From assembly GCA_026770705.1 (NCBI GenBank), contig JANJGN010000021.1, positions 99,634,001 to 99,698,000 of the forward strand: a DNA stretch of 64,000 nucleotides, in the 5' to 3' direction. A program made the translations under genes and the position numbers. Below, one piece after another: positions 4,982 through 55,300 of the stretch. Each line of letters opens with the position of its first letter. Position 1 is the stretch's first letter. The notes beneath the pieces are model-generated. The model saw only the letters and a list, made by a program, of their open reading frames with translations, ran no database searches and was not told the origin of the DNA. The DNA comes from Isurus oxyrinchus (Eukaryota).

Positions 4982-5294
4982 GAGAAAGACAAAGATGGGC
5001 GGTCAGAGAGACGGAGTGAGAGAGAGACAGAGAGAGGCATCGAAGAGACAGAGTGAAAGACAGGGAGACAGAGACAGGGAGTGAAGAGATGGAGTAAAGA
5101 GAGAGAGAAACAGGTAGCAAAGAGACAGGGAGCCAGAGAAAGGCAGTGAAGAGACTGAGGAGTGAGAGAGAAAGAGACAGAGTGAGAGAGACAGAGACTG
5201 GCAGTGCAGAGAGAGTGAGAGACAGAGACAAGCAGTGAAGAGTTGGAGTGAGGGAGAGAGAGACAGAGGTAGGGGGTGAAGAGATAGGGGCTGT

Positions 5295-6810
5295 GCCTGC
5301 CAGTCTATCAGGTTGGAAGCTGTGGAAGGAAGATCCCCAGAGGAGATGAGGTCAGTAACAGTCCTGGAAACAATGGCTTGATGTTCAGTGGTGGGGGTCA
5401 TGGTCCAGGGAGAGGTAGGAGGAAGTGTCTGCAAGTTGACGCTCAGCCTCCGCGAGGTAGAGGTCAGTGCACCAGACAACAACAGCACCACCCTTGTCAG
5501 CGGGTTTGATGATGATGTCAGGGTTGGACCTGAGAGAATGGAGTGCAGTAAGTTCAGCGAGAGAGAGATTAGAATAGGTGAGAGGAGCAGAGAAATTGAG
5601 ATGACTAATGTCATGCCGACAGTTCTCAATGAAAAGATCAAGAGAAGGTAAGAATCCAGAGGGAGGGGTCCAGGTGGAGGGAGAATATTAGAGGTGGGTG
5701 AAAGGATCCGTTGAACGGGGAGAGGACTCCTGCCCAAAGAAGAGAGCACGGAGACGAAGGCAGCGGAAGAAGAGTTCAGCATCATGCCGAGCCCAAAATT
5801 CATTGAGATGAGGGCATAAGGGTATGAAACTGAGTCCTTTGCTGAGCACTGAATGTTCAGCATCGGAGAGGGGAAGGTCAGGGAGTATGGTGAATACACG
5901 GCCGGGGCTGGGATTGGAAGATGGGATGGGGACAGAGGGACAGGCAGGGGTGGAGTGTCCTGGATGGGTGTTGGTGTTGATGAGTTGTTGGAGCTTGCGT
6001 TCCTTTGCACCTGAAAGAAAGAGACAAAGTTTCTTGTTGAGGCGTCGGATGAGACTAAGAATAAAATGAAACTTTGAAAAAGGGTACGGTGGTGCTGCTG
6101 GTGGGAGAGATCAAGTGTGTTCTTATGGCGGCGCATGGCACTGAGTGTGGATCTCAGAATGTGACGGGAACAGCAGTCCGAGGAGCATTGTATGTACCGG
6201 AGATACCTGTAATCCTGGGTGGGTTTGAAACATGAGGGGTGGAATTTCAGTTGAAATCCACGTGGGGTAAGTTGGAGACAGATAGTCACTGAGAAAGGAG
6301 ATATGGCTGTGGAAGCGGGTTTTAGTAAACACCTTGTCAAACACCTGGAGAGAAATGGAAAGCAATGAAGGTGAACAAGACAAAAGAGAGATACGAAAAT
6401 CCTGACAGAGAGAAGAACAATACTTCTTCAAGGTAGGCATTCCTTGAAGAGAAGTGGCAGTCAATTAAACACTAAGATAAAAGCAAAAAACTGCAGATGC
6501 TGGAAATTCAAAACAAAAACAAAAATACCTGGAAAAACTCAGCAGGTCTGGCAGCATCTGCAGAGAGGAGCACAGTTAACGTTTCGAGTCCACATGACTC
6601 TTCAACAGAACTAAGGAAAAATAGAAAAGGGGTGAAATATAAGCTAGTTTAAGGGGGCGGGGGGACAAGGAGAGCTGAATAGAGGGTCATGATAGGTGGA
6701 GATAACCAAAAAATATCACATACAAAAGGACAAAGAGGAGTTGAAGGTGGTGATATTATCTAAGGAATGTGCTAATTAAGGGTAGAAAGCAGGACAAGCA
6801 AGGTACAGAT
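5295..6810 (-). mobile_element. Penelope-like retroelement fragment (RT N-terminal region plus pseudo-LTR)
   Basis: Minus-strand translation near 5300-5560 gives LRSNPDIIIKPADKGGAVVVWRTDLYLAEAERQLADTSSY...PTTEHQAIVS (PLE KPADKG motif). The pseudo-LTR at about 6470-6810 carries a hammerhead. Confidence 0.8.
6574..6612 (-). ncRNA. minimal type I hammerhead ribozyme (Penelope pLTR), one core variant
   Basis: Minus strand reads AGTT-CTGTTGA-A-GAGTC atgtg GACTC-GAAA-CGTTA-ACT. Helix II is perfect and helix III palindromic, but the core is CUGUUGA instead of CUGANGA. Confidence 0.6.
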
Positions 6811-15004: not shown

Positions 15005-15905
15005 AGCTGGTGTTTGAGGTGTCTGATGGGTTTTGCTGCTGTTTAGGAAGTGGGTCTGATGGGTTTTGCTGGTGTTTGGGGAGTTGGTGTGATTGATTTT
15101 GCTGGTGTTCGGTGGTGGGTCTGATGGGTTTTGCTGGTGTTTGGTGAGTGTGTCTAAAGTGTTTTCCTGGTGTTTGTGGAGCAGGTCTGAAGGGCTCTGC
15201 TGGTGCTTGGTGGGTGGGTCAGATGGGTTCTGCTGATCTTTGGGGAGTGGGTGTGATGGGTTTTGTTGGTATTTGGGGAGTGAGTCTGTTCGGTTTTGCT
15301 GTTGTTTGGAGATATGGGTCTGATGGGTTTTACTGGTATTTGGGGAGTATGTCTGATTGGTTCTGATGGTGCCTGGTGGGTGGGTCAAATGGTTTTTGCT
15401 GGTTTGGGAGTAGGTCTGATGGTTTTTGCTGGTGTTTGGTGAGTGGGTCTAATGTGTTTTCCTGGTGTTTGTGGAGTAGGTCTGTTCGGCTCTGCTGGTG
15501 CTTGGCGGTTGGGTCGGATGGATTTTGCTGGTGTTTGGGGAGTAGGCCTGATTGGTTCTGCTGGTATTTCAGGGGTGGGTCTGATGGGTTTTGCTGGTGC
15601 TTGGGGAGTGGGCCTGATGGGTTTTGTTGGTATTTTGGGGAGTAGGTCTGTTTGGTTCTGCTGATGTTTGAGGGGTGGATCTGATGGGTTTTGCTGGTGT
15701 TTGGGGAGTGGGTCTGATGGGTTTTATTGGTGGTTTGGGGAGGTCTGATGGGATTTGCTGGTGTTTGGCAAGTAGATCTGATGGGTTCTGCTGGGGCTTG
15801 ACTGGTGGATCGGATGGGTTTTCTTGGTGTTTGGGGGGGTGGGACTAATGGGTTTTGCAGGTGTTTTATGAGTCAGTCTGATGGGTTTTGTTGGTGTTTT
15901 GTGGG
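15005..15905. repeat. about 33-bp minisatellite (GTCTGATGGGTTTTGCTGGTGTTTGGGGAGTGG)
   Basis: About 27 degenerate tandem copies. Remnants resume at 26460-26580 and occur at 58600-58670. Confidence 0.85.
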
Positions 15906-16958
15906 CGAAGGGGGGAGGGTTCATTGATTCATAGAAATGACAGAAAATTTATAACCCAGTCAGATGCCATTCCGATCACCTTGTCCATTCTGATTAATGA
16001 AGAGGTCCCCAGACCCATCTCACCTCCGTGAACTAGCCTTGCAGGTCTCGGCTCTTTATGTGAACATGTAAGAATTTGTTAAATGTGGCGAGAGTTCCTG
16101 CCTGTGTCATCTTTTCAGGTAATGAGTTCCAGGTCCCTAAAACTCTCTGGGTGAGAAAATATTTCTTCATCTCCTGTATTATCTTTATACAATCACTTTA
16201 AACTTAGGCTTGCCAGTTTTTGACCTCCCCCCATCTCTTGAGGTAAATAGGTCATCTCTATTTATCCATTATGGACCCTCATAATTGTATACCTCAATCA
16301 AATCTATCTTCGGCCACCTATGCTTTTATATTTTTTCTTGGGATTTGGGCATCACTGGCTAGCCAGGCATTTATTGCCCATACCTAATTGCCTTTGCGAA
16401 GGTGATGGTGAGCTGCCTTCTTGAACTGCTGCAGTCCATTTGGCGCAGGTACACCCACAGTGCTGTTAGAGAGGGTGTTCCAGGATTTTGGCCCCAGTGA
16501 CTGTGAGGGAATGGCAATATATTTCCAAGTCAGGATCCTGTGTGACTTGGAAGGAAACTTGCAGGTAATGGTGTTCCTATGCCGCTGTTGCTCTTGTCCT
16601 TTGAGGTGGTAGAGATTTAGAAAATGCACTTAAAAGCTTTGTGTGTGCTGCAGTGCATCTTTCATATAGACACAATACTGCCTGTGTGTGTCAGTGATGG
16701 AGGGAGGGAATGAATGTTTAAGGTCATGGGTGGAGTGGTGAGCAGGCGTCCTTGATAGTGTCAAATTTCTTGAGTGTTGTTGGAGCTGCATTCATCCATG
16801 CAAGCGGAGATCACATTCCTGACTTGTGCCTTGTAGATAGTGTACAGGCTTTGAGGAGACAGTAGGTGAGTTACTTGGCACAGAATTCCCAGCCTCTAAC
16901 CTGCTCTTCCAACCACAGTATTTATTTGGCTGATCCAGTTCAGTTTCAGGTCAATGGT

Positions 16959-17546: not shown

Positions 17547-19474
17547 TCTCTCTTGTTGGAGATCTCATTGCCTGGCGTTCCTGTGGCCTGGTTTTTACTG
17601 CATTTAGGCACAGACTGCTTCAGTATCTGAGGAGTTGTGAATGGTGCTGAACATGGTGCAATTATCAGTGAACATTCCCACTGCTGACCTTATAACAGAA
17701 GGAAGGTAATTGATGAAGCAGCTGAAGATGGTTGGGCTGAGGACACAACCCTGAGGAACTCCTGCAGTGATGTCTTGGAACTGGGATGATTGACTTCCAA
17801 CAACCATCTTCCTTTGTGCTAGGTATGACTTCAACCAGCGGAGACTTTTCCCCCTGATTTCCATTGACTCCAATTTTGCTCGGTCTCCTCTCTCGGTCAA
17901 ATGCTGCCTTGATATCAAGGGCAGTTACTCTCACCTCATCCCAGGAGTTCAGCTCTTTTGTCCATGTTTGGATCAAGGCTGCAATGAGGTCAGAAGCTGA
18001 ATAACCCTGCCGGAACTCAAACTGGTTGTCAGTGAATAAGTTATTGTTGTGTAAGTGCCGCTTGATAGCACTGTCGATGACACCTTCCATCACTTTGCTG
18101 ATAATGGAGAGTGGACTGATGGGGTGATAATTGGTTGGGTTGAATTTGTCCTGCTTTTTGTGTACAGGACATACCTGGGCAATTTTCCACATAGCTGGGT
18201 GATGCCAATGTAATAGCTGTACTGGAATAGCTTGGCTAGGGATGCAGCAAGTTCTAGAGCACAAGTCTTCAGTACTATTGCCGGAATATTGTCAGGGCCC
18301 ATAGCCTTTGCAGTATCCAGTGACTTCAGCTGTTTCTCAGTATCACATGGAGTGAATATAATTGGCTGAAGACTGGCATCTGTGAAGCTGGGGACCACAG
18401 GAGGAGGCTGAAGTGGATCTTTTATTTGGCACTTCTGGCTGAAGATGGTTGCAAATGCTTCAGCCTTGTCTTTATGCACCTTTGTGCTGGGATCCCCAGC
18501 ATTGAAGATGGGGATATTTGTGGCATCTCCTCGTCTGGTTAGTTGTTTAATTATTCACCACCATTCATGACTTGATGTGGCAGGACTGCAGATCTGATCT
18601 GTTGGTTATGGGATCAGTTAGCTCTGTCTGTCACATGGTTCTGCTGTTTGGCACGCAAGTAGTCCTGTGTTGTAGCTTCACCAAGTTGACACCTCATTTT
18701 TAGGTATGCCTGGTGCTGCTCCTGGCATTCTCTTCTGCACTCTTCATTGAACTAGGGTTGATCCCCTAGCTTGATGGTAATGGTGGAGTGGGGGGTATGC
18801 CGGGCCATGATGTTACAGATTGTGATTGAATACAACTCTGCTGCTGCTGCTGTTTCCCACAGCACCTCAAGGATGCCCAGTTTTGAGTTACTAGAGTGCT
18901 TCTGATTCTATCCCATTTAGCATGGTGGTAGTGCCACACAACACAATGAAGGGTATCTAGGACGAAGAGGGATTTTTTTCTTCACAAGGTCTGTGCGATG
19001 GTCACTCATACCAATACTGGCATGGACAGGTGCATCTGCAACAGGTAGATTAGTGAGGATAAGGTGTTTCCCTCTTGTTGGTTCTCTTACCACTTGCTGA
19101 AGGCCATATCTGCCAGATGTTTCCTTCAGGATTTGCCCAGTTCAGTCAGTAATGGTGCTACCAAGACACACTTGTTGCTGGACATTGAAGTCCTCCACCC
19201 AGTATACATTCTGCACCCTTGCCACCCTCAGTGCTTCTTCCAAGTGGTGTTCAACATGGAGAAGCACTGATTCATTAGACTGGGGATGGGGAAGGTGGGG
19301 GGGTATGGGCACGGTACGTGGTAATCAGGAGGAGGTTTCCATGCCCATGTTTGACTTGATGACCCTTGAGACTTCAAGGAGCTCAGAGTTGATGGTGCCG
19401 CCAACTCTTTTGGATCTGTCCTGCCAGTGGGCCAGGATATACCCAGGGGTAGTGATGATAGCAATCACATCTTT

Positions 19475-20584
19475 TTCCTGTAATGTGGTAACCAGAGCTC
19501 TGTGCAGCACTCTAGCTGCAGTCTTAGTGTTGTATACAGTTCCAGCATAACCACCTTGCTCTCTGCTCAGCTAATAAGGGAAAGCATGCTATATACCTTT
19601 TTACCCACGTTATCGACCCATCCTAGCACTTTTACCAGTCTGTGGATATACACTGCAAGGTCCCTCTGTTCCTCCACATTACTCAGTAATTAGCCCCAAT
19701 TTACTGGGGGTTCCCTTTGCCTTGTTGCACCTCCCAAAATGCATTACCTCACACTTCTCCAGGTTGAATTCCATTTTCCAGTTTTCTCTCCAACTGACCA
19801 GACCATCTCTACCTACCTGCAGTCGGAAGCTTTCCTCCTCACTGTCAACCACATCATTTTCTTTAACAAGCCCCTACATTTGACCCTAAATTATTAATAT
19901 AAAAATAAAGGGACCGACTGCTAACCCAGCAGAACCACTGTCCCCACCCCTCACCAAACCCTAGGAACAGACTCCCAGTTGCAAAAGCACACATCAACCA
20001 TCTCCTTCTGCTTCCTGACACTAAGTTAATTTGAGATCCAATTTGTTGCGCTCCCTTGGGGATCCCAAGGGATTTTACGTTTTGACTAGTCTTCCATATG
20101 GGACCTTGTCAAAAGCCTTGTTAAAATCCACGTCCACCACATTGCTTACATCAACCCTGCTTGCTACCTCTTGAAAAAATTCAATCATTAGTCAGAGATG
20201 ACCTTCCTTTAACAAACACAGCTGACTTTCCTTGATGAATCCAAGCCTTTCTAAGTGAAGGCTTGTGCTGTTCTGCTGAGTTGATTCCAATAATTTTCCC
20301 ACCACTGAAGTTAAGCTAACTGGCCTATAATTACTCAGACTATCCCCTCCTCACTTTTTAAATAACAATACAACATTAAAAGTCCCTCCAATCCTCTGGC
20401 ATCACCTCTGTAGCCAGGGGAGATTGAAATATGATGCCCAGAACCTATGCTATTTGCTCCCTTGCTACTTTCAACACTTGGAGTTTTATTTTACCTGGCC
20501 CTGGCTGTTTATCTACTTTCAAAAATCTCTAATCCTTTAATACTTCCTCTCTTACAATGTTTATCCCATCCAATATTTCACACT
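19475..20584 (-). mobile_element. CR1-type LINE fragment (continues at 26159-26460; host of the provirus)
   Basis: Colinear with the uninterrupted copy at 57363-58600, whose ORF 57862-58092 carries CR1 RT motifs. Confidence 0.8.
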
Positions 20585-21091
20585 TGAAAGGTCCGAGGAA
20601 TACTCTGGTACAAAATTTCAACACTCGGAGTCCAGATGCAATATTCAAGTGGTTCCTTTATTACACATGCGGGGAGCAAACACTGGGCAATCCAGGCACT
20701 TCGCCACTGAGGTTCAGATGAGCACAGTTTATATATCTTTTACTTCAGTTACAACTTAATGGTATTAGTTAGACAAAGGCCACAGCACAATGATCCCCCA
20801 GTGGGATGATAATTGTGTTCCTGTACAGTAATTGCAGTGCAGAGACCGGGCATTGTCCTTTTTGATTACGGCTATCAGATGGTGCGAAACGGCCTTCCCC
20901 ATTTCCTGATTGAGTTATTCCCGTGTCCCTGCCTGTGTGTCTCCCATTTCCTAATTGCAGATTTACAGCTGAGCCCTTTGTACAAGTTTTTAGTTTTCAT
21001 GTATGGCTGTGATTATCTGTGTATGCTTTGGCACCCTAGCTGCCAGTCCTGGCTGGCACTTCAAAATAAATCCAAATTTTCTGTACCTTCA
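20585..21091 (-). repeat. 3' LTR
   Basis: 507 bp, about 92% identical to 25654-26158 by hand count. Purine-rich PPT on the minus strand immediately inside (about 21092-21115). Confidence 0.95.
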
Positions 21092-21325
21092 GTCCCCGCG
21101 CCCCCCCCCTCCACCACACCCTTTTGGGTGCATCACTGTTAGGTTAAGCTAGCCAATTAATCTACATCTGATGGTTCTGTCATGGCTCTGGTGGTACCGA
21201 TCCGAGCAAGTCCTATGATCTGTGACATCACCCGGACCTTTCCCCAAGTTTTTAAGCTTCCTAATGTCTGAGACTCCTGACTTTCCGGTGGTGCGTGGCC
21301 ACCAAGATGGGAGGCTAGGACTCTA

Positions 21326-23476
21326 CTACATTAATATTGTGTCCTGTCCCAGCAGATGTTGTTGCTCCTTTAACATTATTTTTGTCCTATGTCTAAGGGC
21401 TTCCTTCTTATAGGTGCCACGTGCTGCAATTCCCCACGCCAATGCTAACACTAACTGCACTGCGATGAGTATATGAGAGATTATTCTTATCCAGGGTTGT
21501 ATATCCACATTCAGCCCCTAGTCCCACACTTGCACCCACCATGTTGGATCACTCAAGTGCTCTTCTGAATTATTGATTAGCCTTTTAAACACCGCCTGTA
21601 ACACGTAATGCTGATTCCTCACCTTTCGTAAGTCACCTTTAAACTTTGTCAGACTTTCGGGAAGGTGGGGAATTGGGGCCTGCTTAGGTTCCTCATACTG
21701 TTCCAGGGTATCATAGAGTGTGTCAGAGGCATTGACTGAGATCTGACCCCTTTGTTGGATGTACACCATTTGCGTGTGTTCAGCAGTAACTGGGAGCCTG
21801 GATTTAAAGCAGAAGTTGGGGGTGGTGATGTTGCAATGTAAGCTCCCGTATGTGTATGACTGCTCAGTAGTTGTCACACAGTATTTCCCCCTTTCCTTTG
21901 TATCCTGAGCGGGTGTGATGGTTTTCACTGTGGGTAATTTCTAATATACAACCCTCCGATCATTTGTACCCACATTCGTCCAGCAACCCCCCCCCACCCG
22001 TTCCGACTGGACGGGGGCAAATTGTGAGACTACCTTTCCTCCTGCACCCGCTCAGTGATACCCCATGTATGCCCTCATTCTTGTGTATGGCATGCATGTC
22101 TATGGGGTAGTACTGGAGGGAGTCATTGTCCCAGATTAGCCCAATGTTGGTACTGAGGGTGCGGGCCTGTGTCTTCTGTGACTGAGGGGATTGCCAATAC
22201 CTTGCCTGTCATGTTCATTTGGTTTGTGGTGCACTTCTGAATCACCGCAGACACCCTGGTCATTCCTTTCAATGTACAGGCGCCGAAGTTGCCTGGGTTC
22301 TTGGTCATCCCCCACAACCGGGTACTGTTGATCCAGCCCAGTACCTCCCCACTTTGGATCTGGCCCAGATTGTGTCTTAATTGCCCGATCATCCACTGGC
22401 CATAAGCTGGCTTTTTTGGGTGCTGTCCTCTTGTCGTTCCTCCCTTTCTATTAATTGGTTGGTGGTTTTAGCATGGGTCTCTATAACGCGTACGCTTTCC
22501 AATACAGATGCCACACTCTTGCCCCCTAGGGCCGCTGCCGTTTCACTGCCCCTCGCTGCTCTTATGAGAAGCTGCCTCATGATTCCTTTAAGATTCATAA
22601 CCTCGGAGTTGATTCCTTGAACGTTGAGAGAGTTTACCAGGGAAGTCCCTGTCAGTACCTCTCTTCTGGCGGTGGAAAGCAGCAGGTCCCCTGAATCTAG
22701 TGACGCCCGTGGCATCGGCCGCCTGATTAATCACAGCCTTACTCAGTCATTTGTATAGTTTTCGTCAAGGCGTTTGGTTACTGCAATACTCAAGCAGTTG
22801 TATACATGCCAAGTTCACAATTACCGGTACAATTTCATGTTTAACATTATCATACAATTGTTCACCGTCCATATACAGAACCAGTCCAATCTTTGGCCCA
22901 GGGGTCATGTCTGGGCAAGATACTCTCTGTGGTGTCGTTGTGTCCTGACAGCGGGGTGGTGTTGGTCCGGGGGTCCGCTGTTGTAGTCAACTCTGCGTGT
23001 TTGGCCCTCAATGTCCAATGCCAGGTATCTGTCATTCCCAAGTCCTCCTCCCTGGGACAGTGACCCCAGTTGTTGTTGTCCCGGGGTGTGAAGGCAAATT
23101 GCGAAAAATCTCTCACACATTGTATCTGGACCTGTGCCCCCTTCTCACATGTCCAGGGTCTGTCCGAACCATCGTTGATCTGGAAGCATGTTGGGCCCTC
23201 ATTTTTCCATCGGAGTTTCATTCCCATATGCGAGCTCTGCCCCAGGCTCTCTCCATCGCTCATTCCAACGGACACTTGCATAAGCCCGGTGCCACACTTG
23301 AAGAGCATTGACCTTTCCATTGTGATATTCACACTTCCTTTCACGCAATATCTGTCGCTGACATTCTTGTAGTATAAGGCCATAGCAGCTGCTGCTTCAG
23401 AGTTTACATTCTGTATGCTGGTGGCTGCAATAGCCAGGGCCCTGGTAATGATTATTGACACCCAGCTTTTTTCCAT
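21326..23476 (-). pseudogene. env: env, class I fusion glycoprotein-like (disrupted)
   Basis: Signal-like start MEKSWVSIIITRALAIAATS, then RR-EVLTGTSLVNSL plus heptad region, Cys-rich SLSGCRRKGSLTICP...ECGY...GC, KYCVTT...CFK, WWVQVW, and TM IISHILIAVQLVLALAWGIA. Several frameshifts and an in-frame TAG at 21518-21520. Confidence 0.8.
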
Positions 23477-23739
23477 CTTGGCTTGGAGGTTACCCGGTTA
23501 TTGTTATTTCTGTAATGAAGCACACTGCTGGTGATCACCAGGGGTTAGGTTGTATATAAGAGGCAGTTTTCTCCTTTACGTCCCTCCTTGTATACTGCCC
23601 ATAGTGACCCTCCCCGTAGTTGAGGATTCCCCCTTTGTCTTTCGGATGGCCAGTCCTCCAGATCAGGAATGAATCCTAAACCACTTGGCTAACAGAGTAT
23701 GGACATTTGCCCGTTTCCCTCCCACTGCCCGGTAATTCA

Positions 23740-24125
23740 GTCTTTCTTACTTACATCATACCTTTTCAGTTGTGACCAGTGTTTCCACCTACCTTTTCCC
23801 TTCATATTGATACAAGCACATGAATCGCTGGTGAAAATAATTTTGTATGGTCCAGTCCATTTTGGGGCAAAACCTGGTTGGCTAAGGGTGATTTGAACAA
23901 ACACCATGTGTCCAACCTCAGCCAGTGGTGACGGAGTCCCCCTTTTGTCCTCTCTTCTAAATCCCTGATAGCCTGTTGGTCCTTCACTTCCTGTTGTAAT
24001 TCCTTTAGCTGTCCATCCAATTGCTTAGTGTAGTTTTTAATTTTATCTCTGATGGGTCCCATATCCTTGCTTCTGGTGGCTATGCCCTCTGGCAAGCGCA
24101 AACCCTCTGGTCATTAACTCATAAA
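23740..24125 (-). pseudogene. pol: integrase C-terminal remnant (GPY/F domain)
   Basis: ELMT..LRLPE...VGHMVFVQ...PKWTGPYKIIF...WKHWSQLKR across frameshifts. Confidence 0.8.
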
Positions 24126-24440
24126 GGGGTTTATCTTAAATCCAGCATTTTTCAGTGCCCTTAAGACAGCCAGGAGAGCTCCGATGTGGCCCCTTCCTGA
24201 TTCTGATGCTATTAGGATATCATCTACATACTGTAAGATTGTACTGTTGTAAGACTCAGCTTCTCACTCATGCCCCAATGGAAAATGTTCAGGCTGCTGT
24301 GGAATCCCTGTGGGAGCCTGATCCAGGTATATTGTCTCCCTCCCACTGTGAAAGTGAATTTATCTTGGGATTCCTGGTCCAGTGGTATCAGCCAAAATCC
24401 ATTGGCTACATCTAAAACTGTAAATATTTTATGTTTGGGT
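24126..24440 (-). pseudogene. pol: reverse transcriptase core remnant
   Basis: KIFTVLDVANGFWLIPLDQESQDKFTFTVGGRQYTWIRLPQGFHSS, then after a frameshift ILQYVDDILIAS (YVDD at 24219-24230)...LKNAGFKINP. Confidence 0.9.
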
Positions 24441-25338
24441 TTTTACATTAAAGCACACCTCGGGTTTAGGAATGTCTGTCGCGGTGGCCACCGTTTCAGT
24501 GGGGTCTGTAACCTCCACTGCCGACACCTTTATCTTAGTTTTCCCTATGTGGTTATCTACCCCAGTGGCCCATCTTTCTAGCTCATCATATGTGTTCTTG
24601 TGTACTAGCACGGTGTCTAGGTTTGCCTGGTTGGCCAGGCTAAGGCCATCCTTGTACAATTGCATAAACTGTACATCATCTCGGTTCGGCACAGCATCTA
24701 CACCCCTGTAGTTACAATATGCCTCAAACTTCCGATTGCCATATTCATGGGCACTCTCACCCTTTTCTTGTTTTACTCCAGTCACTATATTCCAGTTAGC
24801 TGGGGCTTGCCCTAAGACTTGTGCTATTTCTGTTCTAAAGGCTCTGAAATCGGCTTGCTGCTGTGCCTGGTCTGCCTGGTTGTCCGGGCACCAGGGGCAC
24901 ATACTCTATCTTAATTGGGGCCACGGGATATGGGGGTGGTGATTCCCAACCTGCTTCCTACTGTTCCTCATATCCTACTGCCTGTTCCACCAGCCCATTT
25001 CAATCTACATTATCTGCGTATTGTGCAGCTACTAGTGGCTGTGTTAAAGCTGCCGAAACTGACATGAGATTTTTTGCCTGTACCAGCTCTTCATTTTGGG
25101 ATTTGTTGGCCAACATTCTATTTACTTTCTTACTTAACTCCACGTGCTGTCTTAACATTAGGATCCAGGCTTTATCATCATTTTTTCTGATTATCCTACC
25201 ATTTTCTCTGATCAGCGGGTGAATCAAATGGGTTCCAATTGTTCTTTATCATTTTGCCTATTGATTCCTTATTTTGTCAGCTAAATGCCGTATCAGGGAT
25301 CCCTCTGGTCCCCACTCGAGTTTGTCACCACTGGCCAT
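24429..25338 (-). pseudogene. gag: gag (disrupted)
   Basis: ATG at 25338 (MASGDKLEWGPEGS), ORFs 25000-25227 and 24429-24902 with an MHR-like VKQEKGESAHEYGNR and a truncated zinc knuckle VCFN. Confidence 0.8.
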
Positions 25339-25633
25339 CTCTGGGTAAGATGGTCGGGGTATAGTTATCATCAACGGTTCGGTTCTTACCCTGGGTCCTT
25401 TCTGACTGAACTCGTTACTTGTGACTAACACCAGATGTAATTATAACAATCTATAAGACAAGCATTTCTACCCCACCCTTACCACCCCTTGAACTATTGC
25501 CTGGAGCCCAGGTTTCTGATATGTGGGGTGCCTGAAACTTCCTGGGTCGGGACAGAGTCGGATTTAGTATGAATAAAAATGTATTCACACTGTGACTCAT
25601 CCCAGTTCCCTGTCGGTGTCCTGTGTCCTTTGT

Positions 25634-25651
25634 ATCCTGCCGACTACACCA
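25634..25651 (-). promoter_or_regulatory. primer binding site, tRNA-Ser
   Basis: TGGTGTAGTCGGCAGGAT, 2 nt inside the 5' LTR. 17/18 complementary to the vertebrate tRNA-Ser(AGA) 3' end ATCCTGCCGACTACGCCA. Confidence 0.88.
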
Positions 25652-25653
25652 AT

Positions 25654-26158
25654 CGAAAGGTCCAAGGAATACTCTGGTACAAAATTTCAACACTCGGAGT
25701 CCAGATGCAATATTCAAGTGGTTCCTTTATTACGCATGTGGGGAGCAAACTGAGCAATCCAGATGCTTCTCCACTGAGGTTCAAATGAGCACAGTTTATA
25801 TATCTTTTACTATCAATTACACCTTAATGGTATTAGTTAGACAAAGGCCACAGAACAATGACCCCCCAGTGGGCTGATATTTGTGTTCCTGTACAGTAAT
25901 TGCAGTGCAGAGACCGGGCATTGTCCTTTTGAAGATGGCTATCAGATGGTGCGAAATGGCCTTCCCCATTTCCTGATTGAGTTATTCCCGTGTCCCCGTC
26001 CGTGTGTCTCCCATTTCCTAATTGCAGATTTACTGCTGAGCCCTTTGTACAAGTTTTTAGCTTTCATGTAAGGCTTTGATTGTCTGTGTATGCTTTGGTG
26101 CCATAGCTACTGGTCTTGGCTGGCACTTTAAAATAAATCCAAATTTTCTGCATCTTCA
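25654..26158 (-). repeat. 5' LTR
   Basis: 505 bp. Minus-strand TATA-like ATATATAAA (25795-25803) lies upstream of AATAAA (25726-25731). Confidence 0.95.
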
Positions 26159-26624
26159 CACTCTTCTTCTTTAAAAACGACGCCATCATGGCCCTCTCTT
26201 TTCAGAAGACAGCTGCAAAATATTCATTCGGAACCTCACCCACATCCTCTGTCTCCACATGTGGTTTATCCTTATGCTCTGTAGTAGGCCTTATTATGTT
26301 ATTTATGTATTCTTAAAATAGCTTTGGATATTCCTTAATTTTATTGTCAATATTTTTTTCCTTCCTTCTCTCTCCTTTCCTGATTTCCTTTTTAATTTCG
26401 CCCCTACACTTCCTGTACTCTTCTAGGCTTTCTGTGGCATTAAGCTCTCGGTATCTGACGGAAATCTGATGCATTTTGCTGGTGTCAGGTATCTGGTGGG
26501 TTTGATTGGTTTTACTGCTGGTTTCTGCGGGTGTGGCATGGGTCTGCTGGGATTTAGTGGCGATTGTGCTGGGTCTGCTTCATTTTCCTCACTCTGTAAT
26601 CATCTATTTCTTTCTCTTCCCCAG

Positions 26625-27799: not shown

Positions 27800-28165
27800 G
27801 TGTGAGCCGTGACTCAGTGGATAACACTTGTCCCTCTTGAGTCAGAAGGCCGTGGCTTCTAGTCCCATTCCAGAGACTTGAGCACAAAGATCTAAGCTGG
27901 TACTTCAGCGTAGTACTGAGGAACTGATGTATTTTGTGAGGTCAGTACAGAGGGAATGTTGCACTGCCAGAGGGGCAGTGCTGAGGGAGTGCTGCACCAC
28001 CATGGGGCAGTACTAAAGGTGTGCTGCATTGCCAGAGGTGTAGTGCTAAGGGAGTGCTGCACTTTTGGAGGAACAGGATTGAGGGAGTGCTGCACGTTTT
28101 GCGGGACAGTACTGAGAGAGCGCTACATTGTCAGAAGGACAGTGTTGAGGGAGTGCTGCATTGTT
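27800..28165 (+). mobile_element. tRNA-derived SINE-like head plus 33-bp repeat tail
   Basis: A-box-like GTGACTCAGTGG and B-box-like GGCTTCTAGTCC, followed by CAGTACTGAGGGAGTGCTGCA units. Confidence 0.5.
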
Positions 28166-28169
28166 GGAA

Positions 28170-30210
28170 GTCACATTCAGTTTGAGGATGAGAAACTTGG
28201 GTCTCAAGCTAGTGTCTTAAATATAAATAAAGACAATTACAAAGATGTGAAGATAGAGCTGACTGAATTAGGCTGGGAAAGTAGGTTAAAAGATAAGGTG
28301 GTCAATAAGCTGTGGTAGATATTTAAGGGGATATTTCATAACTGACTAGAAGGTTGAGAAACTATCAAAAACCAGCAAAAGATAACCAAAAAAGGGCAAT
28401 ACTAGAATATTAGAGAAAACTAGCGAGAAATATAAGAACAGTCAGTAAAAGCTTATATAAAAAGGTGAGGAGTATCTAAAGTGAGTGTTGGTTCCTTAGA
28501 AGATGGGAGTAGGGAATTAATAATGGGAAACAAGGAAATGGCAGAGACTTTGAACAATTTTTTTCTGTCTCTCTTTGTGGTAGAAGACACAAAAAAGCAT
28601 CTGAAGAATAGCAGAAAATCATGAGGCAAAAAGGAGGAAGGGATATAAAACACTCATGAACACTGGAGGAAAAAGTACTGGGAAAAATAGAAGTAATAAA
28701 GACCGACAAGTCTCCTGGTCCAGATGGCCTGCATCCTAGTGCCTTGAAAGAAGTGGCTGCAGAGGTAACGGATGCATTAGTCCTGATCTTCTAAAGTTCC
28801 TTAGATTCTGGAAAGGTCACAGTGGATTAAAAAACTGCAAATTGTACACTTCTATTCAAGTGATGAGGGAGACAGAGCACAGGAAACTTTAGGCCAGCTA
28901 GCCTAACACCTGCCATTGGGAAATGCTAGAATCCATTCTTAAGGAGCTAGCAGCAGGACATTTAGAAGATTGTAATATAATCGGACAAAGTCAGCATGGT
29001 TTTGTGAAAAGGAAATCATGTTTGACATATTTATTAGAGTTCTTTCAGGGTGTAACAAGCAGGGTGGATAAAGGGGAACCAGTAAATGTGTATTTGGATT
29101 TCCAAAAGGTATAAGGTGCCAACATCAAAGGTGACTCCACAGTACAAGAGCCCATGGCATCAGGAGTAGAATATTAGCATAGGATAGAGGATTAGCTAAT
29201 TAACAGGAAATAGAAAGTCGGGATAAATGGATGTAACTAGTGGTGTGCCACAGGAATCAGTGCTGGGGCCTCAATTATTTACAATCTATATTAATAACTT
29301 GCCTGAAGGAATCAAGTATATTGCCAAATTTGCTGGAGATTAGAAGGAAAGCTTGTTGTGAGACGGATTCAAATAGATTGCAAAGGGATAAAGATAGGTT
29401 AAGTGAGTGGCTAAAGTTTGGCAGATGGAGCATCTTGTGGGAAAACACGTGGCAGAAAGAATGGAAAAGCAGAATATTAATATGGAGAGCGACTGCAGAA
29501 TGCTGCTGTACGGAGGGATCTGGGTGTCCTTGTGCATGAGTCACAAAAGGTTAACTTGCAGGTGCAGCAAGAAATGAGGAAGACAAATGGAATGTTAGCC
29601 TTTATTGCAAGGGGGAAGGAGTATAAAGTAGTGAAGTCTTGCTACAACTGTGCAGGGCGTTGGTGAGACCGCACCTGGTGCCCCGTGTACAGTTTTGGTC
29701 ATTGTATTTAAGGGGGGATATATTTCAGTGAAGGTTCACTAGGCTGATGCTGGGATGAAAGAGTTGTCTTATGAAGAAAAGGTTGTGTAGGTTGGGCTTA
29801 TACTTATTGAAGTTGAAAAGAATGAGAGGCGATCTGATTGCAACATAGAAGATTCTGACAGGGCTGACAGGGCAAACACTGAGAGGGTGTTTCCCCTCAG
29901 GAGTGAGTGTAGGACTAGGGGGCACAGTTTAATAAGAGGTATTTCATTTAAGTCAGAGATGAGGATGAATTTCTTCCCAGTGTGTTGTTAATCTTTGGAA
30001 TTCTCTTCCCCAATGAGCAGTGGAGGCTGGGTCACTGATTACATTCGAGGCTGAGTGGGATAGATTTTTTTTATCTGCAGTGGAGTCAAGGGTTATGGGG
30101 GACAGGCAGGAAAGTAGAGCTAAGGCCAAAATAATATCAGCCATAATTTTATTCAATCACAGAACATGCTTGAGGGGCCAGTTAGGCTAGTCCTGATCCT
30201 ATTTCTTCTT
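28170..30210 (+). mobile_element. CR1-type LINE, long degenerate fragment
   Basis: KSPGPDGLHP, ORF 28923-29114 (SQHGFVKRKSCLTYLLEFF), LVRPHL and CR1 3'UTR. Confidence 0.85.
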
Positions 30211-49300: not shown

Positions 49301-52300
49301 ATATCGAAAATATTCCAATATTATTCATTAAATCTAAGTGTATAACCTTACATTTGCCCCCGTTGAACTCCATCTGCCACAGTTTTGCTGCTCATTTGCC
49401 CTCTCAATAGAATTATGGAATCATTACAGAACAGGAGGAGGATATTTGGCAGGTTGTGTCTCTGCTGGCTCTCTGCCAGCGCCACTCAGCTAGACCCATT
49501 CCCTCACCTTTTTTCCATTTTTTCTCAACTTTTTTCTCTTCAGATAATTATCCAATTCTCACTTGCTATCCTACATTAAATCTCCATCATATTCCCAGAC
49601 ATTGCATCCCAGATCCTAACCACCCCCAGGGTCGGTACCTACAGTCTATATATATGTGTAATAAATATATATTATACAGATATGGGGCAGACCTTTGCAT
49701 ACAGGACACAATCTGCAGATGACACAGCAGTTGGAAGTGTTGTAAACTGTGAGGAGGACAGTGATAGACTTCAACAGGACATAGAGGGGTTTGTGAAATG
49801 GGCTGACAAGCGGCTGATAAAATTTAATGTTGAAAGATGTGAAGTGACCCATTTTAGTGAGAAGACCGACGATGGTCAAAATAAATGGTACAATTCTAAA
49901 GAAACAGAGGGAGCTGGTGCTACATGTGCACAATTTGAAGGTGGCGGGGCAGGTAGAGAAAGTGGTTAAAAAAGCACCCGGGATTCTGGACTTTAAAAAT
50001 AGAGACATAGAGTGCAGAGTAAGGAAGTTATGATAAAACAGTATAAAACACTGGTTTAGCCTCAACTAGAGTACTGTCTCCAGCTCTCAGTACCACACTT
50101 TAGGAAGGATGTGAAGGCATTTTGAGGATGCAGAAAAGATTTACCAAAATGGTTTCACGAATAAGAAACATTAATTACTTTAACAGACTGTAGAAGCTGG
50201 GGATTTTCTCTTGGGGGAGGAGGTTGAGAGGAGATTTGATGGCTGTGTTCAGAATCATTCGGGTCTTAACAGAGTAGATCGAGGGAAGCTGTTCTGACCG
50301 AGGAAGGATTGAGAACCAGAGGGCACTGATTTAAAGTGATTGGCAAAAGAACCAACGGCTGGATACTGGGAAGCTCGGATCAGTGAAGTGTCAGGATGGG
50401 AGATCACAGGCTTCAGGTCAATTGTGGGGGAATTGGAGAAGGAAATCAGGGTGAGGTGGGTCTACCTTTCTGTTGAGTTGGGGTTTTGGGGTTGGTGTTA
50501 GGGGTACATGTCCTGATGTCTCTCTTTCTCTCTCTGTGTTTCAGGCTCTCACACTCTCCGGTATTTCTTCACCGGTATGACTCCGATTCCTGGTATTCCG
50601 GAGTTTGTAGCTGTCGGTTATGTGGATGGCGTTCAGTTTGTTATGTACGACAGCGATGGGAAAGTGTTGATCCCCCGGGAGCAGTGGATGGTGGAGAGTG
50701 AGGGGCGTGAGTCCTGGGAGCGGAAGACGATGCTTGCTCAGGAACAGGAGCAGCATATCAAAAAGGATATTCCGATCCTCATGGCCCGGACCAACCAGTC
50801 GGGAGGTGAGTCCTTGTTGTCCCACCACTCGGTCTCTTCCTGTGGATTGAGATTGTTCGGGATGGGGAGAAACCAGGAATGGATTGGGATATGGGAGCCA
50901 GAGGCTGATTGGCTGAGTGAGCGATGGGTGGAGTCTCCTAGTGGTTCAGTGTCTGATTGGCTCCATATGCTTGATTGACAGGAATCCACACCTACCAGGT
51001 GTTATATGGCTGTGACCTGAACGATGATGGGACCAGGAGTGAGGTCCACCAGACGGGATGGGACGGACGAGATTTTATGAGCTTCGACAAGGAGCACGTG
51101 GTGTGGGTGACACATGTCCCATGGGGAGAGAGCTTCAAAAACAAATGGGACCAGGACCAGGTTGAAAACAACCGATTGAAACATTACCTGGAGGTGGAAT
51201 GTGTGCAGTGGCTGATGAAATACCTGGAGTACGGACAGAGAGAACTGAGAGTCGGTGAGTGAGGGGGGAACTGAGAGTCGGTGAGTGAGGGGGGGATTGA
51301 GAGTCGGTGAGTGAGGGGGGGATTGAGAGTCGGTGAGTGAGGGGAGACTGAGAGTCGGTGAGTGAGGGGAGACTGAGAGTCGGTGAGTGAGGGGGGGACT
51401 GAGAGTCGGTGAGTGAGGGGAGACTGAGAGTCGGTGAGTGAGGGGAGACTGAGAGTCGGTGAGTGAGGGGGGGACTGAGAGTCGGTGAGTGAGGGGGTGT
51501 GAGGGTCGGTGAGTGAGGGGGTGTGAGGGTCAGTGAGTAAGGGGGGACTGAGAGTCGGTGAGTGAGGGGGGACTGAGAGTCGGTGAGTGAGGGGGGACTG
51601 AGAGTCGGTGAGTGAGGGGGGGACAGAGTCGGTGAGTGAGGGGGTGTGAGGGTCGGTGAGTGAGGGGGTGTGAGGGTCGGTGAGTGAGGGGGTGTGAGGG
51701 TCGGTGAGTGAGGGGGTGTGAGGGTCGGTGAGTGAGGGGGTGTGAGGGTCGGTGAGTGAGGGGGTGTGAGGGTCGGTGAGTGAGGGGGTGTGAGGGTCGG
51801 TGAGTGAGGGGGTGTGAGGGTCGGTGAGTGAGGGGGTGTGAGGGTCGGTGAGTGAGGGGGTGTGAGGGTCGGTGAGTGAGGGGGTGTGAGGGTCGGTGAG
51901 TGAGGGGGTGTGAGGGTCGGTGAGTGAGGGGGTGTGAGGGTCGGTGAGTGAGGGGGTGTGAGGGTCGGTGAGTGAGGGGGTGTGAGGGTCGGTGAGTGAG
52001 GGGGTGTGAGGGTCGGTGAGTGAGGGGGTGTGAGGGTCGGTGAGTGAGGGGGTGTGAGGGTCGGTGAGTGAGGGTCGGTGAGTGAGGGGCTGTGAGGGTC
52101 GGTGAGTGAGGGGCTGTGAGGGTCGGTGAGTGAGGGGCTGTGAGGGTCGGTGAGTGAGGGGCTGTGAGGGTCGGTGAGTGAGGGGCTGTGAGGGTCGGTG
52201 AGTGAGGGGCTGTGAGGGTCAGTGAGGGAGGGGCTGTGAGGGTCGGTGAGGGAGGGGCTGTGAGGGTCGGTGAGGGAGGGGGTGTGGGGCTCGGTGAGGG

Positions 52301-55300
52301 AGGGGGTGTGGGGCTCGGTGAGGGAGGGGGTGTGGGGCTCGGTGAGGGAGGGGGTGTGGGGCTCGGTGAGGGAGGGGGTGTGGGGCTCGGTGAGGGAGGG
52401 GGTGTGAGGCTCGGTGAGGGAGGGGGTGTGAGGCTCGGTGAGGGAGGGGGTGTGAGGCTCGGTGAGGGAGGGGGTGTGAGGGGTGGGAGTCGGTGAATGG
52501 GTTGCTGTCTGGGACTCTCTATCTCGAGGTTCCTGTGCTGACTCCTCTTTCTTTATCTCTCAGTTGCCCCCGTCGTGTTCTTTACCCGTCTGGGTGATTC
52601 TAACCAGCTGTCCTGCGTCGTCACCGGGTTTTACCCTCAAGCCATCGAGGTGACTCTGTGGAGAGACGGAGTGTTGATCGATGAGACCCTGTCCACTGGG
52701 ATCTTACCCAATCACGACAGGACCTACCAGATCCGGAAATGGATGGAGTTTGATCCAGAGGATCAGGCTGAGTATTCCTGTCGGGTGGAACACAGTGGGC
52801 TGGAGGAGGAGAAGGTGGTGATTTATGGTAAGACTGTTTCTCACTGTTAGAGAGAACCCAGCCTCAGACCAGGGTCACAGGAGGGAGGATCAGTGCTGAG
52901 CTGTCAGCCCAGGACAGGCTGAGGCCCAGGATCCAGAGAGAGGGAAATTAATATTCACTTTTAGTGAGTCACAGTCATCGCGCCTGTGCTAGAGTAACCA
53001 AGACAGAATATCCTGGGATAGTACAGTATGTCAGGACCTGATGAAACCTGTGATAGTACATTATAACAGGAACCAGTGAATCCTGGGATGGTGCAGTATG
53101 AGAAACCATTGAACACTGGAAAACTACAGTATGACAGGACCCTGTGAATCAGGGGATAGTACAATATGTCAGGACCTGATGAAACCTGTGATAGTACAGT
53201 ATGAAAAAAGCCAGTGAATGTTGGGAATGAACAGTATGACAGAAACCAGTGAATCCTGGAATAGGACAGTATAACAGGAACCAGTGAATACTGGGATAGT
53301 ACAGCATGACAGGACCTGGTGAATCCTGGGATGGTACAGTATGACAGAAACCAGTGAATCCTAGGATAGTACAGTATGACAGAAACCTGTGAGTCCTGAA
53401 TTATACATTATGACAGGACCCCATGAACCCTGGGATAGTACAATATGACAGAAAACAGTGAGTACTGTATGACAGGACCTTTTGAATCCTGGGATAGCAC
53501 ATCATGACAGGACTCTGTGAATCCTGGGAGAATACAGTATTACAGGAACCAGTAAATCCTGGGATAGTACAGCTGGACAGAAACCAGTGAGTCCTGGGAT
53601 AGTACAGTGTGACAGGACTCCGTCAATCCTGGGATAGTACAGTATGACAGGACCTCATGAATCCCGGAATAGTGCAGTATGACAGGAGTCTGTGAATCCT
53701 GGGATAGTACAGTATTACACAAAACAGTGACTCCTGGGATAGTACAACATGACAGGATGCTATAAGTCCTGGGGTAGTACAATATTACAGAAAACTGTGA
53801 ATCCTGGGATAGTACAACATGACAGGATGCTATAAGTCCTGGGGCAGTACAATATTACAGAAAACTGTGAATCCTGGGATAGTACATTATGACAGGACCC
53901 TGTGAATCCTGAGGTAGTACCGTATAACAGGACTTTGTGAATCCTGGGATAGTACAATATTACAGAAAACAGTGAATCCTGGGATAGTACAGCATGACAG
54001 GATGCTGGAAGTCCTGGGGTAGTACAATATGACAGAAAACTGTGAATCCTGGAATAGTACATTATGACAGGACCCTGTGAATCCTGGGATAGTACAGTAT
54101 GACAAGAACATGTAAATCAGGGGATAGTACAGCATGACTGAAACCATTGAAACCTGGGACAGTACAGTTTGATAGAAAGCAGTAAATCCTGGGATAGTAT
54201 GTTGTGACTGGACCCTGTGAATCCTGGGATGGTATAGTATTACAGAAAATAGTGAACTTTGGGACAGCATAGTGTGACAGGACCCTCTGACTCCTGGGCT
54301 AGTACAGTATGATGGAAACCAGTGAATCCTGGGATCATAGAGTATGACAGAAAGCAGTGAAAAGTGAGAGAGTACAGTATTACAGAAAACAGAATCCTGG
54401 GATAGTATGATATGACAGGACTCTGTGAATCCTTGGATAGTACACTATTACAGAAAACAGTGAATAGTGGGATAGTACAGCATTACAGAAAACAGTGAAT
54501 CATGGGATAGTACAGTATTACAGGATTCCATGAATACTGGGATAATACAGAATGACAGAGCCTTGCGAATACAGTGTGGCAAATACAGTGAAGCCTGGGA
54601 TAGTACAGTATGACAGAAATCATTGAAACCTGGGACAGAACAATATAACAAACTACTGAATCCTGGCATAGTGTAGTATGACAGGACCAACTGAATCCTG
54701 GGATAGTACAGTAAACACAGGACCCAGTGAATCCTGGGAGAGTACAGTATGACAGTACCCCACAAATCATAGAATAGTACAGTTTGACAGAAATCAGTGA
54801 ACTCTGGGATCATATGGTACGACAGAAAGCAGTGAATACTGGGAAAGTACAGTATTACAAAAAACAGTGATCCCTTGGATAATACAGTATTACAGGACCC
54901 CATGAATCCTGGGATTGTACAGAATGACAGGGCCTTGAGAATCCTGGGATAGCACAATATTACAGAAAACAGTGAATCCTGGGATTGTGAAGTATGACAG
55001 GGCCCCATGGATTCTAGGCTAGTGGAGTAAATGCAGGACCCAGTGAATCCTGGGATAGTACAGTATGACAGGACCCTGTTAATCCTGGTATAATACAAAA
55101 TGACAGGACCCTGCAAATCCTGGGATAGTACAGTATGACTTGAATCAGTGAACCTTGGGATGGTACATTATAGCAGAACCCATTGAATCCTGGGATAATG
55201 CAATACGACAGGACCCCCTGGATTTTGGGATAGTGCACTGTGACAGGACCTTCAGAATCCTGGGGTACTGCAGTATGACAGGACCCCATGAATTCTGGGC

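What the first reader, a model, noticed from the sequence alone, without database searches (positions are those of the whole stretch)
20585..26158. Provirus with tRNA-Ser PBS and an Env resembling paramyxo/pneumovirus F: candidate lokiretrovirus in a cartilaginous fish
Seen: LTR pair, 4-bp TSD, Ser PBS, gag, YVDD RT, GPY integrase tail and a long env. The env lacks the CX6CC/immunosuppressive signature of gamma-type TM. It instead has an early basic site and fusion/heptad segment (RREVLTGTSLVNSLNVQGINSEVMNLK), then a long Cys-rich ectodomain (SLSGC..KG..TICP...ECGY...GC...YCVTT...CF) before WWVQVW and the TM helix, which is the layout of Mononegavirales F. Established: lokiretroviruses are a sister lineage of retroviruses whose Env resembles these fusion proteins. 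As I recall they were described from lampreys, bony fish, amphibians and reptiles; I cannot verify whether sharks have been reported. The family assignment is inference.
Basis: partly seen in the sequence, partly recalled or inferred. Interest (0 to 1): 0.85.

Follow-up and report, generated by a model that had tools for sequence, protein, structure and literature searches.

The report
Shark retrovirus with RSV-F-like envelope
This is a dead, heavily deleted retrovirus copy, likely from a shark; its polymerase belongs to ordinary retroviruses rather than lokiretroviruses, yet its envelope family is predicted to fold like the RSV/measles fusion protein and is distantly similar in sequence to lokiretrovirus envelopes, so this entry machine is likely older and more widespread in retroviruses than published.

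Summary
The provirus is real: LTRs at 20585-21091 and 25654-26158 (K2P 0.080), CACT duplication, tRNA-Ser PBS (17/18). It is a decayed copy missing protease, 5' RT, tether, RNase H and the integrase core. These deletions are shared with sibling copies; undeleted siblings supplied the missing domains. It is not a lokiretrovirus: RT falls inside Retroviridae (99/97), grouping with Loki is rejected (p-AU 0.0013), and RNase H is the gamma/epsilon/snakehead type. It fits a deep, shark-rich lineage of the snakehead-retrovirus-related 'Huo' clade; its exact sister is unresolved. The F-like Env idea holds: an intact sister-family Env, colinear with the window's, folds like RSV/hPIV3 F (Foldseek E 2e-12). 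A family profile scores Loki Env best (46-55 bits), then walleye and snakehead Env. F-like Env is therefore not Loki-specific, and this conflicts with the published statement that Loki and canonical Envs share no detectable similarity. Side finding: the intact sister env shows signs of host retention. The scan noted similar non-Loki elements in two other genomes.

The parts
26159..26162 (.). target-site duplication CACT (5' side of the element)
25654..26158 (-). 5' LTR, 505 nt; TATATA at LTR position 357 and AATAAA at 428; terminal CA decayed to CG
25634..25651 (-). primer-binding site, 17 of 18 complementary to genomic tRNA-Ser(AGA) plus CCA
24440..25338 (-). broken gag (matrix-like start, capsid region); 327-nt deletion at ~24871; cut off before the CCHC knuckle
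   Evidence: capsid ORF vs P0007 46.5 bits
24128..24439 (-). remnant of RT (LDVANGFW, LPQGF, YVDD) between the two large deletions
23740..24127 (-). integrase C-terminal remnant with WTGPY (GPY/F) motif
   Evidence: (MLVIN_C E 0.005, under its cut-off)
21326..23476 (-). broken env (~715 codons): signal peptide, N-terminal extension, F-like core
   Evidence: fold of the sister-family homologue
22660..22671 (-). furin-type cleavage site RQKR, homologous to RDKR of the intact sister Env
22395..22655 (-). fusion-peptide end and heptad-repeat A region (frameshifted from the furin site)
21428..21490 (-). transmembrane helix after the WW membrane-proximal motif (21524-21541)
21092..21125 (-). polypurine tract, longer than in siblings
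20585..21091 (-). 3' LTR, 507 nt, TG...CA
20581..20584 (.). target-site duplication CACT (3' side of the element)

Best explanation
The element is a dead, non-autonomous copy of a canonical endogenous retrovirus, likely of the snakehead-retrovirus-related (clade Huo, class III) kind, whose Env is predicted to be a paramyxo/pneumovirus-F-like class Ib fusion protein. Shown: the RT lies inside Retroviridae, siblings carry tether plus a group-III RNase H, priming is on tRNA-Ser, and integration leaves a 4-bp duplication. Inferred mechanism of the parent virus: Env is cut by furin at R-x-K-R, an N-terminal extension of about 190 residues (absent from Loki Env) binds the receptor, and the F-like core refolds into a trimer of hairpins to fuse membranes. 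Inferred history: nested deletions at short micro-homologies arose by RT template switching, and the resulting pol-less genomes were copied in trans by a pol-competent relative. The window copy then decayed neutrally; LTR distance 0.080 gives roughly 18-180 My depending on the rate assumed.
For: RT trees: 6 family rows plus 4 related rows form a clade (100/100) inside Retroviridae (99/97) and apart from 3 Loki rows. In a 26-row tree the AU test rejects shark+Loki (p 0.0013) but not shark+SnRV (p 0.34). SnRV is the best named reference by identity for all 6 family RT rows, 40-45%, tied with an ERV-L-like protein for one row. RH: 76-98 bits to WEHV, WDSV, gamma and SnRV; 10-11 to foamy; 5.5-6.6 to Loki. 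A published whale-shark ERV with a very similar RT by eye (rh_ty_ERV4) is listed among clade Huo tips, and the SnRV-clustered elephant-shark CmiERV carries the same Ser PBS. Env: the window matches the intact sister Env P0002 colinearly (best E 4e-27). Model pLDDT 72. Foldseek top hits are RSV F (1.8e-12) and hPIV3 F (4.3e-11). VIA-align: the top 9 rows are all paramyxo/pneumovirus F (Z 9.0-12.0; e.g. hMPV F Z 10.0, rmsd 6.1, 283 aligned), with foamy Env at Z 8.4 and 8.1. Atlas top hit carries PF00523 on 21% of members, score 0.94. The 1017-nt deletion is shared by 22 of 31 rows and the 2008-nt deletion by 6 of 31; 7-nt and 3-4-nt micro-homologies, no GT-AG ends. Two different tRNA-Ser PBS types occur in the family (19 vs 3 copies), as expected from real reverse-transcription cycles.
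Against: The sister group inside Retroviridae is unresolved (open polytomy). The integrase does not group with SnRV (p-AU 0.043) and is unresolved near Loki, P0008, epsilon and gamma (p-AU 0.26 for grouping with Loki+P0008), so 'SnRV clade' in the strict sense is not shown. The fold was predicted for a sister-family Env (about 30% identical), not for the window's broken one. TM-scores are only 0.3-0.5 and rmsd is large because of pre/post-fusion differences. No direct Pfam PF00523 or PDB sequence hit was found for any family Env. Shared env variants show no purifying selection (N/S 2.37 vs 2.69 for singletons, p 0.63), so a role of Env in spreading these copies is not shown.
Confidence: 0.85

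Rival explanations
1. It is a lokiretrovirus, the first in cartilaginous fishes.
For: Loki Env is the best-scoring reference for the Env family profile (54.9 and 46.3 bits, controls at most 1.2). Integrase N-half scores 84 bits to Loki vs 40 to SnRV. Loki and this RT share the N-terminal motifs WPV.KP and D.ANGFW.
Against: AU test p 0.0013; Loki PFG motif absent; RH not of the Loki/foamy group; Env about 150 residues longer, with an N-terminal extension. A Loki RT query finds at most 40% identity over near-full-length matches in this genome (150 of 16012 candidates scored), and none of the top 10 loci shows the PFG motif.
Confidence: 0.03
2. It is a recombinant: canonical 5' half (gag, RT, RH) with a 3' half (integrase tail and env) taken from a Loki-like donor.
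For: Env similarity is higher to Loki than to SnRV or foamy Env. The integrase tree does not exclude grouping with Loki+P0008 (p 0.26) and weakly rejects SnRV (p 0.043). Domain shuffling is documented in PMC7947760.
Against: Env identity to Loki is only about 20-25% and needs intermediate homologues: a profile of this genome's own copies gives 1.7 bits. Walleye (hhalign 94.5%) and SnRV (87.9%) Envs match the same profile, which fits old shared ancestry better than one swap. Integrase identity to Loki (36-43%) is no higher than to P0008 or epsilon.
Confidence: 0.1
3. It is a foamy-like (clade Tu) endogenous virus.
For: Best PDB sequence hit of the family RT is foamy virus PR-RT (112.5 bits vs 109.7 for MLV). 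Foamy Env is F-like (PMC11468914). 4-bp TSD.
Against: Eight foamy RTs form their own clade (100/100) without the family. RH scores only 10-11 bits to foamy. Siblings carry a gag CCHC knuckle. Fish foamy-like ERVs were not available as references.
Confidence: 0.02

Closest known systems
Clade Huo / snakehead-retrovirus-related class III ERVs (Xu et al. 2018, PMC6001957), e.g. whale-shark rh_ty_ERV4 and elephant-shark CmiERV lineage I (Han 2015, PMC4422223)
   Same: Canonical RT with RLPQGF and LQYVDD; group-III RNase H; shark hosts. CmiERV scaffold 2 has the same tRNA-Ser PBS. The rh_ty_ERV4 RT is very similar by eye.
   Different: The Env type of these elements is not characterised in the passages read. 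Sister relation to SnRV is unresolved, and the integrase does not group with SnRV's.
Snakehead retrovirus (SnRV; L041, identified by its RT being identical to the published SnRV row and its 10,688-nt length)
   Same: Best named RT identity, 40-45%. Its Env matches the family profile (hhalign 87.9%, E 3e-6).
   Different: SnRV Env ORF is 1134 codons with a long tail, and SnRV has accessory ORFs; none seen here. Integrase differs.
Lokiretroviruses (Wang and Han 2021, PMC7947760)
   Same: F-like Env with signal peptide, R-x-K-R site, heptads and TM, detectably homologous in sequence (P0002-P0028 E 3e-37; P0028-Loki Env E 2e-16); tether plus RH architecture.
   Different: RT clade, RT motif and RNase H group differ. 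Loki Env starts directly with the F core; this Env has an N-terminal extension of about 190 residues.
Foamy virus Env and paramyxo/pneumovirus F (class Ib fusogens; Fernandez et al. 2024, PMC11468914)
   Same: Same predicted domain I-III core.
   Different: Foamy Env inserts its receptor-binding domain upstream of the furin site and F has none. Here the extra domain is N-terminal, the arrangement that paper describes for coronavirus spike.

Membership tests
Lokiretrovirus | RT groups with Loki, outside canonical retroviruses | tested here: not met
   (inside Retroviridae 99/97 and 100/98; AU p 0.0013; 3 Loki references)
Lokiretrovirus | Loki RT motif (RCPFG or similar, short spacer to YVDD) | tested here: not met
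   published alignment read vs RLPQGF and the longer spacer
Lokiretrovirus | RNase H of the Loki/foamy group I | tested here: not met
   5.5-6.6 bits to Loki, 76-98 to group III; the RH tree itself was poorly resolved
Lokiretrovirus | Tether plus RNase H (dual RH) | tested here: met
   siblings L014, L037, L039, L040; deleted in the window copy; shared with all retroviruses
Lokiretrovirus | Integrase related to CGIN1/Loki | tested here: inconclusive
   open polytomy; no CGIN1 reference available
Lokiretrovirus | Env related to Mononegavirales F | tested here: met
   by fold and transitive sequence similarity; no direct PF00523 hit; not unique to Loki
Lokiretrovirus | smc gene (only in some members) | not tested
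   optional feature
Clade Huo / SnRV-related ERV | RT inside Retroviridae, outside gamma, epsilon, class II and foamy | tested here: met
Clade Huo / SnRV-related ERV | RT forms one clade with SnRV | tested here: inconclusive
   not recovered, not rejected (p-AU 0.34); published Huo consensus rows could be read but not added to the tree
Clade Huo / SnRV-related ERV | Group-III RNase H | tested here: met
Clade Huo / SnRV-related ERV | Integrase grouping with SnRV's | tested here: inconclusive
   marginally rejected, p-AU 0.043, fragmentary rows
Spumaretrovirinae | RT in the foamy clade; group-I RH | tested here: not met
   (mammalian-type foamy references only)
Gamma-type Env | ISD plus CX6CC in TM, CXXC in SU (PMC9967133) | tested here: not met
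   no CX6CC in the window or in P0002, P0010, P0019, P0028, P0038; one occurrence in P0046, position not checked; gamma Env scores at control level
Metaviridae / errantivirus | RT among Ty3/Gypsy; single RNase H | tested here: not met
Class Ib fusion protein | F-like domain I-III core, furin site before the fusion peptide, heptads, C-terminal TM | tested here: met
   predicted model of the sister Env; motifs in the window
Class Ib fusion protein | Trimer that drives membrane fusion | not testable with these tools
   needs experiment

The most novel reading that the evidence does not exclude
The F-type (class Ib) Env is the ancestral envelope of all vertebrate retroviruses and lokiretroviruses, kept in Loki, foamy, walleye, snakehead and this shark/frog lineage and replaced by gamma/beta-type Env later; and one shark copy of it (L021) has been domesticated as a host gene, an F-type counterpart of the syncytins.
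Probability: 0.4. Interest if true: 0.8.

Novelty: new member of a known kind. Interest (0 to 1): 0.52.

Why it matters
Wang and Han 2022 (PMC9040795) prefer independent env acquisition by Loki and canonical retroviruses, on the premise that their Envs share no detectable similarity. Here a canonical-RT retrovirus lineage in sharks (with Env homologues in frogs) carries an Env that bridges in sequence to Loki Env and, more weakly, to walleye, snakehead and foamy Env. That makes the origin of retroviral env testable with an Env phylogeny. It also shows that an F-like env cannot be used to call an element Loki. The window copy itself is an ordinary fossil. The apparently conserved sister env would be a candidate host fusogen or restriction factor in sharks.

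Tried and rejected
Pfam found no fusion-protein family for any family Env piece or for P0002, whereas the two Loki Envs did hit PF00523 (E 1.2e-5, 0.0022). PDB sequence searches with P0002 and with profile A1 gave nothing under E 0.02. The word-index protein search with P0002 found none among 6603 candidates; with A3, 3 of 8000. The first fold (alignment A1) was unusable, pLDDT 47, and was not searched. A profile of this genome's own copies did not detect Loki Env (1.7 bits). The IMG/VR scan with P0006 alone found nothing. A Loki Env query found no match in this genome among 36 candidates: not found with this query, not proof of absence. The RH tree was unresolved, so scores were used. The test for selection on shared variants in env, gag and pol of the window family was not significant. 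Splicing as the cause of the deletions was rejected (no GT-AG ends). For the sister env, no RNA holder was listed, and the guessed-RNA runs gave only short mixed pieces. Calcraft et al. 2024 (Cell) is not held and may discuss related Envs. Six literature searches listed no paper reporting an F-like or Loki-related Env in SnRV-related, epsilon or shark ERVs, or a co-opted shark env; subscription papers and bioRxiv supplements were not searchable. The CmiERV env was not compared.
Full report
OBSERVATION. The element lies on the minus strand from 26158 to 20585. The LTRs (505 and 507 nt) match at 466 of 508 columns, K2P 0.080, and CACT flanks both ends. Of 28 sibling loci examined, 15 had both LTRs resolved: 8 show an exact 4-bp duplication, 5 match at 3 of 4 letters, 2 do not match. 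LTR distances run 0.04-0.12, apart from one poorly aligned pair at 0.29. The PBS matches a genomic tRNA-Ser(AGA) at 17 of 18: the tRNA-end pattern occurs 136 times in the genome (control 0), and ARAGORN of 6 fetched loci tRNA-Ser and one tRNA-Phe. With the two rates used in PMC4422223 (2.2e-9 and 2.2e-10 per site per year) the insertion dates to roughly 18-180 My. The host is inferred to be a shark from a 4.98-Gb genome and named homologues.

ANATOMY. A DNA search with the env gave 40 scored matches, mostly 82-88% identical. Against one natural near-complete sibling (L039, 8961 nt), the window lacks 327 nt of gag, about 1017 nt covering the gag knuckle, protease and 5' RT, and 2008 nt covering 3' RT, tether, RNase H and integrase core. 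These deletions recur in 20, 22 and 6 of 31 rows (loci were chosen by similarity to the window or to L019, so shares are biased). The two large junctions carry 7-nt and 3-4-nt micro-homologies and no GT-AG ends. Siblings supply RVT_1, tether (RT_RNaseH_2), RNase_H, Integrase_H2C2 and rve. Nineteen siblings use a second tRNA-Ser(TGA)-type PBS and three copies (window, L009, L039) use the first; 7 were unreadable. The window env runs 23476 to about 21326 in six frames. It aligns colinearly with an intact 724-aa Env of a sister family (P0002, locus L021), best E 4e-27.

POLYMERASE. References came from tools: SnRV (L041) and WDSV (L044), whose RTs equal the rows in the supplement of PMC7947760; WEHV-like, gamma, foamy, class II and Gypsy/caulimo-like contigs (labels by motif and tree, partly inferred); and three Loki elements found with the Loki motif, two of whose Envs hit PF00523. 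In a 46-row RT tree the six family rows, including the window's own 72-residue piece, form a clade with four related rows (100/100) inside Retroviridae (99/97) and apart from Loki. In a 26-row subset the AU test rejects grouping with Loki (p 0.0013) but not with SnRV (p 0.34); deep branches are open. RNase H scores 76-98 bits to walleye, gamma and SnRV, 10-11 to foamy, 5.5-6.6 to Loki. Integrase is unresolved and weakly rejects SnRV (p 0.043). A published whale-shark consensus, rh_ty_ERV4, has a very similar RT by eye and is listed among the tips around the Clade Huo label in the tree text of PMC6001957. The elephant-shark CmiERV scaffold 2, which clusters with SnRV, has the window's PBS. The Loki paper lists 0 positives for the three chondrichthyan rows I saw (5 genomes). 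Here a Loki RT query found no Loki-like hit among the 150 candidates scored.

ENVELOPE. A profile search of 1.84 billion representatives gave 53 homologues. Of ten proteins looked up, the informative names are sharks and two frogs. A model of the P0002 core with a 58-row alignment reached pLDDT 72. Foldseek ranks RSV F first (E 1.8e-12), then hPIV3, Nipah, Langya and NDV F. Among predicted viral proteins it also finds WEHV-1 Env (2.6e-9), feline foamy Env (4.4e-6) and WDSV Env (4.9e-6). VIA-align puts nine F chains on top (Z 9.0-12.0), then foamy Env (Z 8.4, rmsd 19.8, 285 aligned; Z 8.1, rmsd 6.3, 269 aligned). By sequence the profile scores Loki Env 54.9 and 46.3 bits, WDSV 25.7, SnRV 15.4, seven foamy Envs 2.5-13.3 and two gamma Envs at control level; reversed and shuffled controls reach at most 5.1. 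The Loki signal falls to 16-29 bits when the bridging rows are removed and to 1.7 with this genome's 16 rows alone, so it is remote and depends on intermediates. A pairwise chain confirms it: P0002-P0028 E 3e-37, P0028-Loki E 2e-16. The genomic context of P0028 could not be seen. L021's own Env sits beside a pol of this canonical lineage.

MECHANISM. Shown: tRNA-Ser priming site, 4-bp duplication, shared deletions, neutral-looking decay. Inferred: a furin-primed class Ib fusogen with an N-terminal receptor-binding extension; deletion by template switching; copying in trans by a helper, because copies without protease and RT cannot move alone. Whether Env was needed for that spread is not shown.

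SIDE FINDING. L021 env is open for 724 codons, although its LTRs are the most diverged of five measured (0.161) and its pol has about 11 stops and several frameshifts. Its N/S ratio is 0.44 against 1.07 for 26 siblings (p 8.5e-5); about 4.4 stops were expected, and every sibling has 1-18 frameshifts relative to it. Three siblings also have N/S of 0.57-0.62, and L021 was picked because it is intact, so this alone is not proof. Contigs of two runs labelled organism B cover the same locus, flank included. In run X7, non-env pieces differ at 133 of 3788 sites (3.5%) and the one long env piece at 2 of 290 (p 0.006); 8 of 10 listed env differences are synonymous. However, 127 rows were not shown and four of the ten places mix paralogues.

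LITERATURE SEEN. PMC7947760: main text parts 1-3 of 4, supplement passages and part 71. PMC4422223: part 1 of 2 plus supplement passages. PMC6001957: passages and supplement passages. PMC9040795, PMC11468914, PMC12583693, PMC12440569, PMC10435555, PMC13709493, PMC9967133, PMC12193657, bioRxiv 2023.10.26.564294 and 2021.11.05.467493: passages only. PMC9040795 states that canonical and Loki Envs share no detectable similarity; PMC11468914 shows foamy Env is F-like; PMC9967133 calls walleye Env distinct and a more recent development.

VERDICT. A real, ordinary-looking fossil of a known deep retrovirus clade, not a lokiretrovirus, with an F-type Env whose link to Loki Env I did not find in print. 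New member of a known kind; interest 0.52.

Noticed in passing
L021:1352-3523 (G000:C40, minus strand): Intact 724-aa F-like env inside an old, otherwise decayed sister provirus: N/S 0.44 vs 1.07 in siblings, and more conserved than flanking pol in a related organism's contigs. Candidate host-domesticated envelope gene.
   Followed up: partly
window 25634-25651; L001-L039: Two tRNA-Ser PBS types segregate within one family (3 vs 19 copies), each matching a genomic tRNA-Ser gene.
   Followed up: yes
L044:5962-9648 and L041:6131-9532: Walleye dermal sarcoma virus and snakehead retrovirus Envs match the same F-type profile; WEHV-1 and WDSV Env models are Foldseek hits of the model.
   Followed up: partly
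L033, L034, L035: Sister-family copies also lose nearly all of pol but keep env; L034 and L035 have low LTR divergence (0.043, 0.027).
   Followed up: partly
G000:C15:71.9-72.8 Mb and C29:0.19-1.13 Mb: Clusters of family copies close together, probably tandem or segmental duplications.
   Followed up: no
P0063-P0076 (cluster of P0046): A frog genome annotation holds 16 near-identical Env homologues, most 677 aa, suggesting a recently active relative.
   Followed up: no
P0024/P0078, P0035, P0043: Shark gene models named fbxo15, Niban-like and cadherin-related include pieces of this Env family: annotation chimeras or exonised env.
   Followed up: no
L104-L113: Another abundant retrovirus family in this genome has the LPQGF RT motif and about 40% identity to Loki RT; not placed on the tree.
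   Followed up: no
window 15021-15940 and 27939-28168: 33-nt tandem repeat arrays; long repeat-derived ORFs also at 5003-6427 and 51002-52559.
   Followed up: no
window 17665-18554 and 28476-29539: ORF pieces resembling non-LTR retrotransposon RT by eye flank the provirus; not searched.
   Followed up: no
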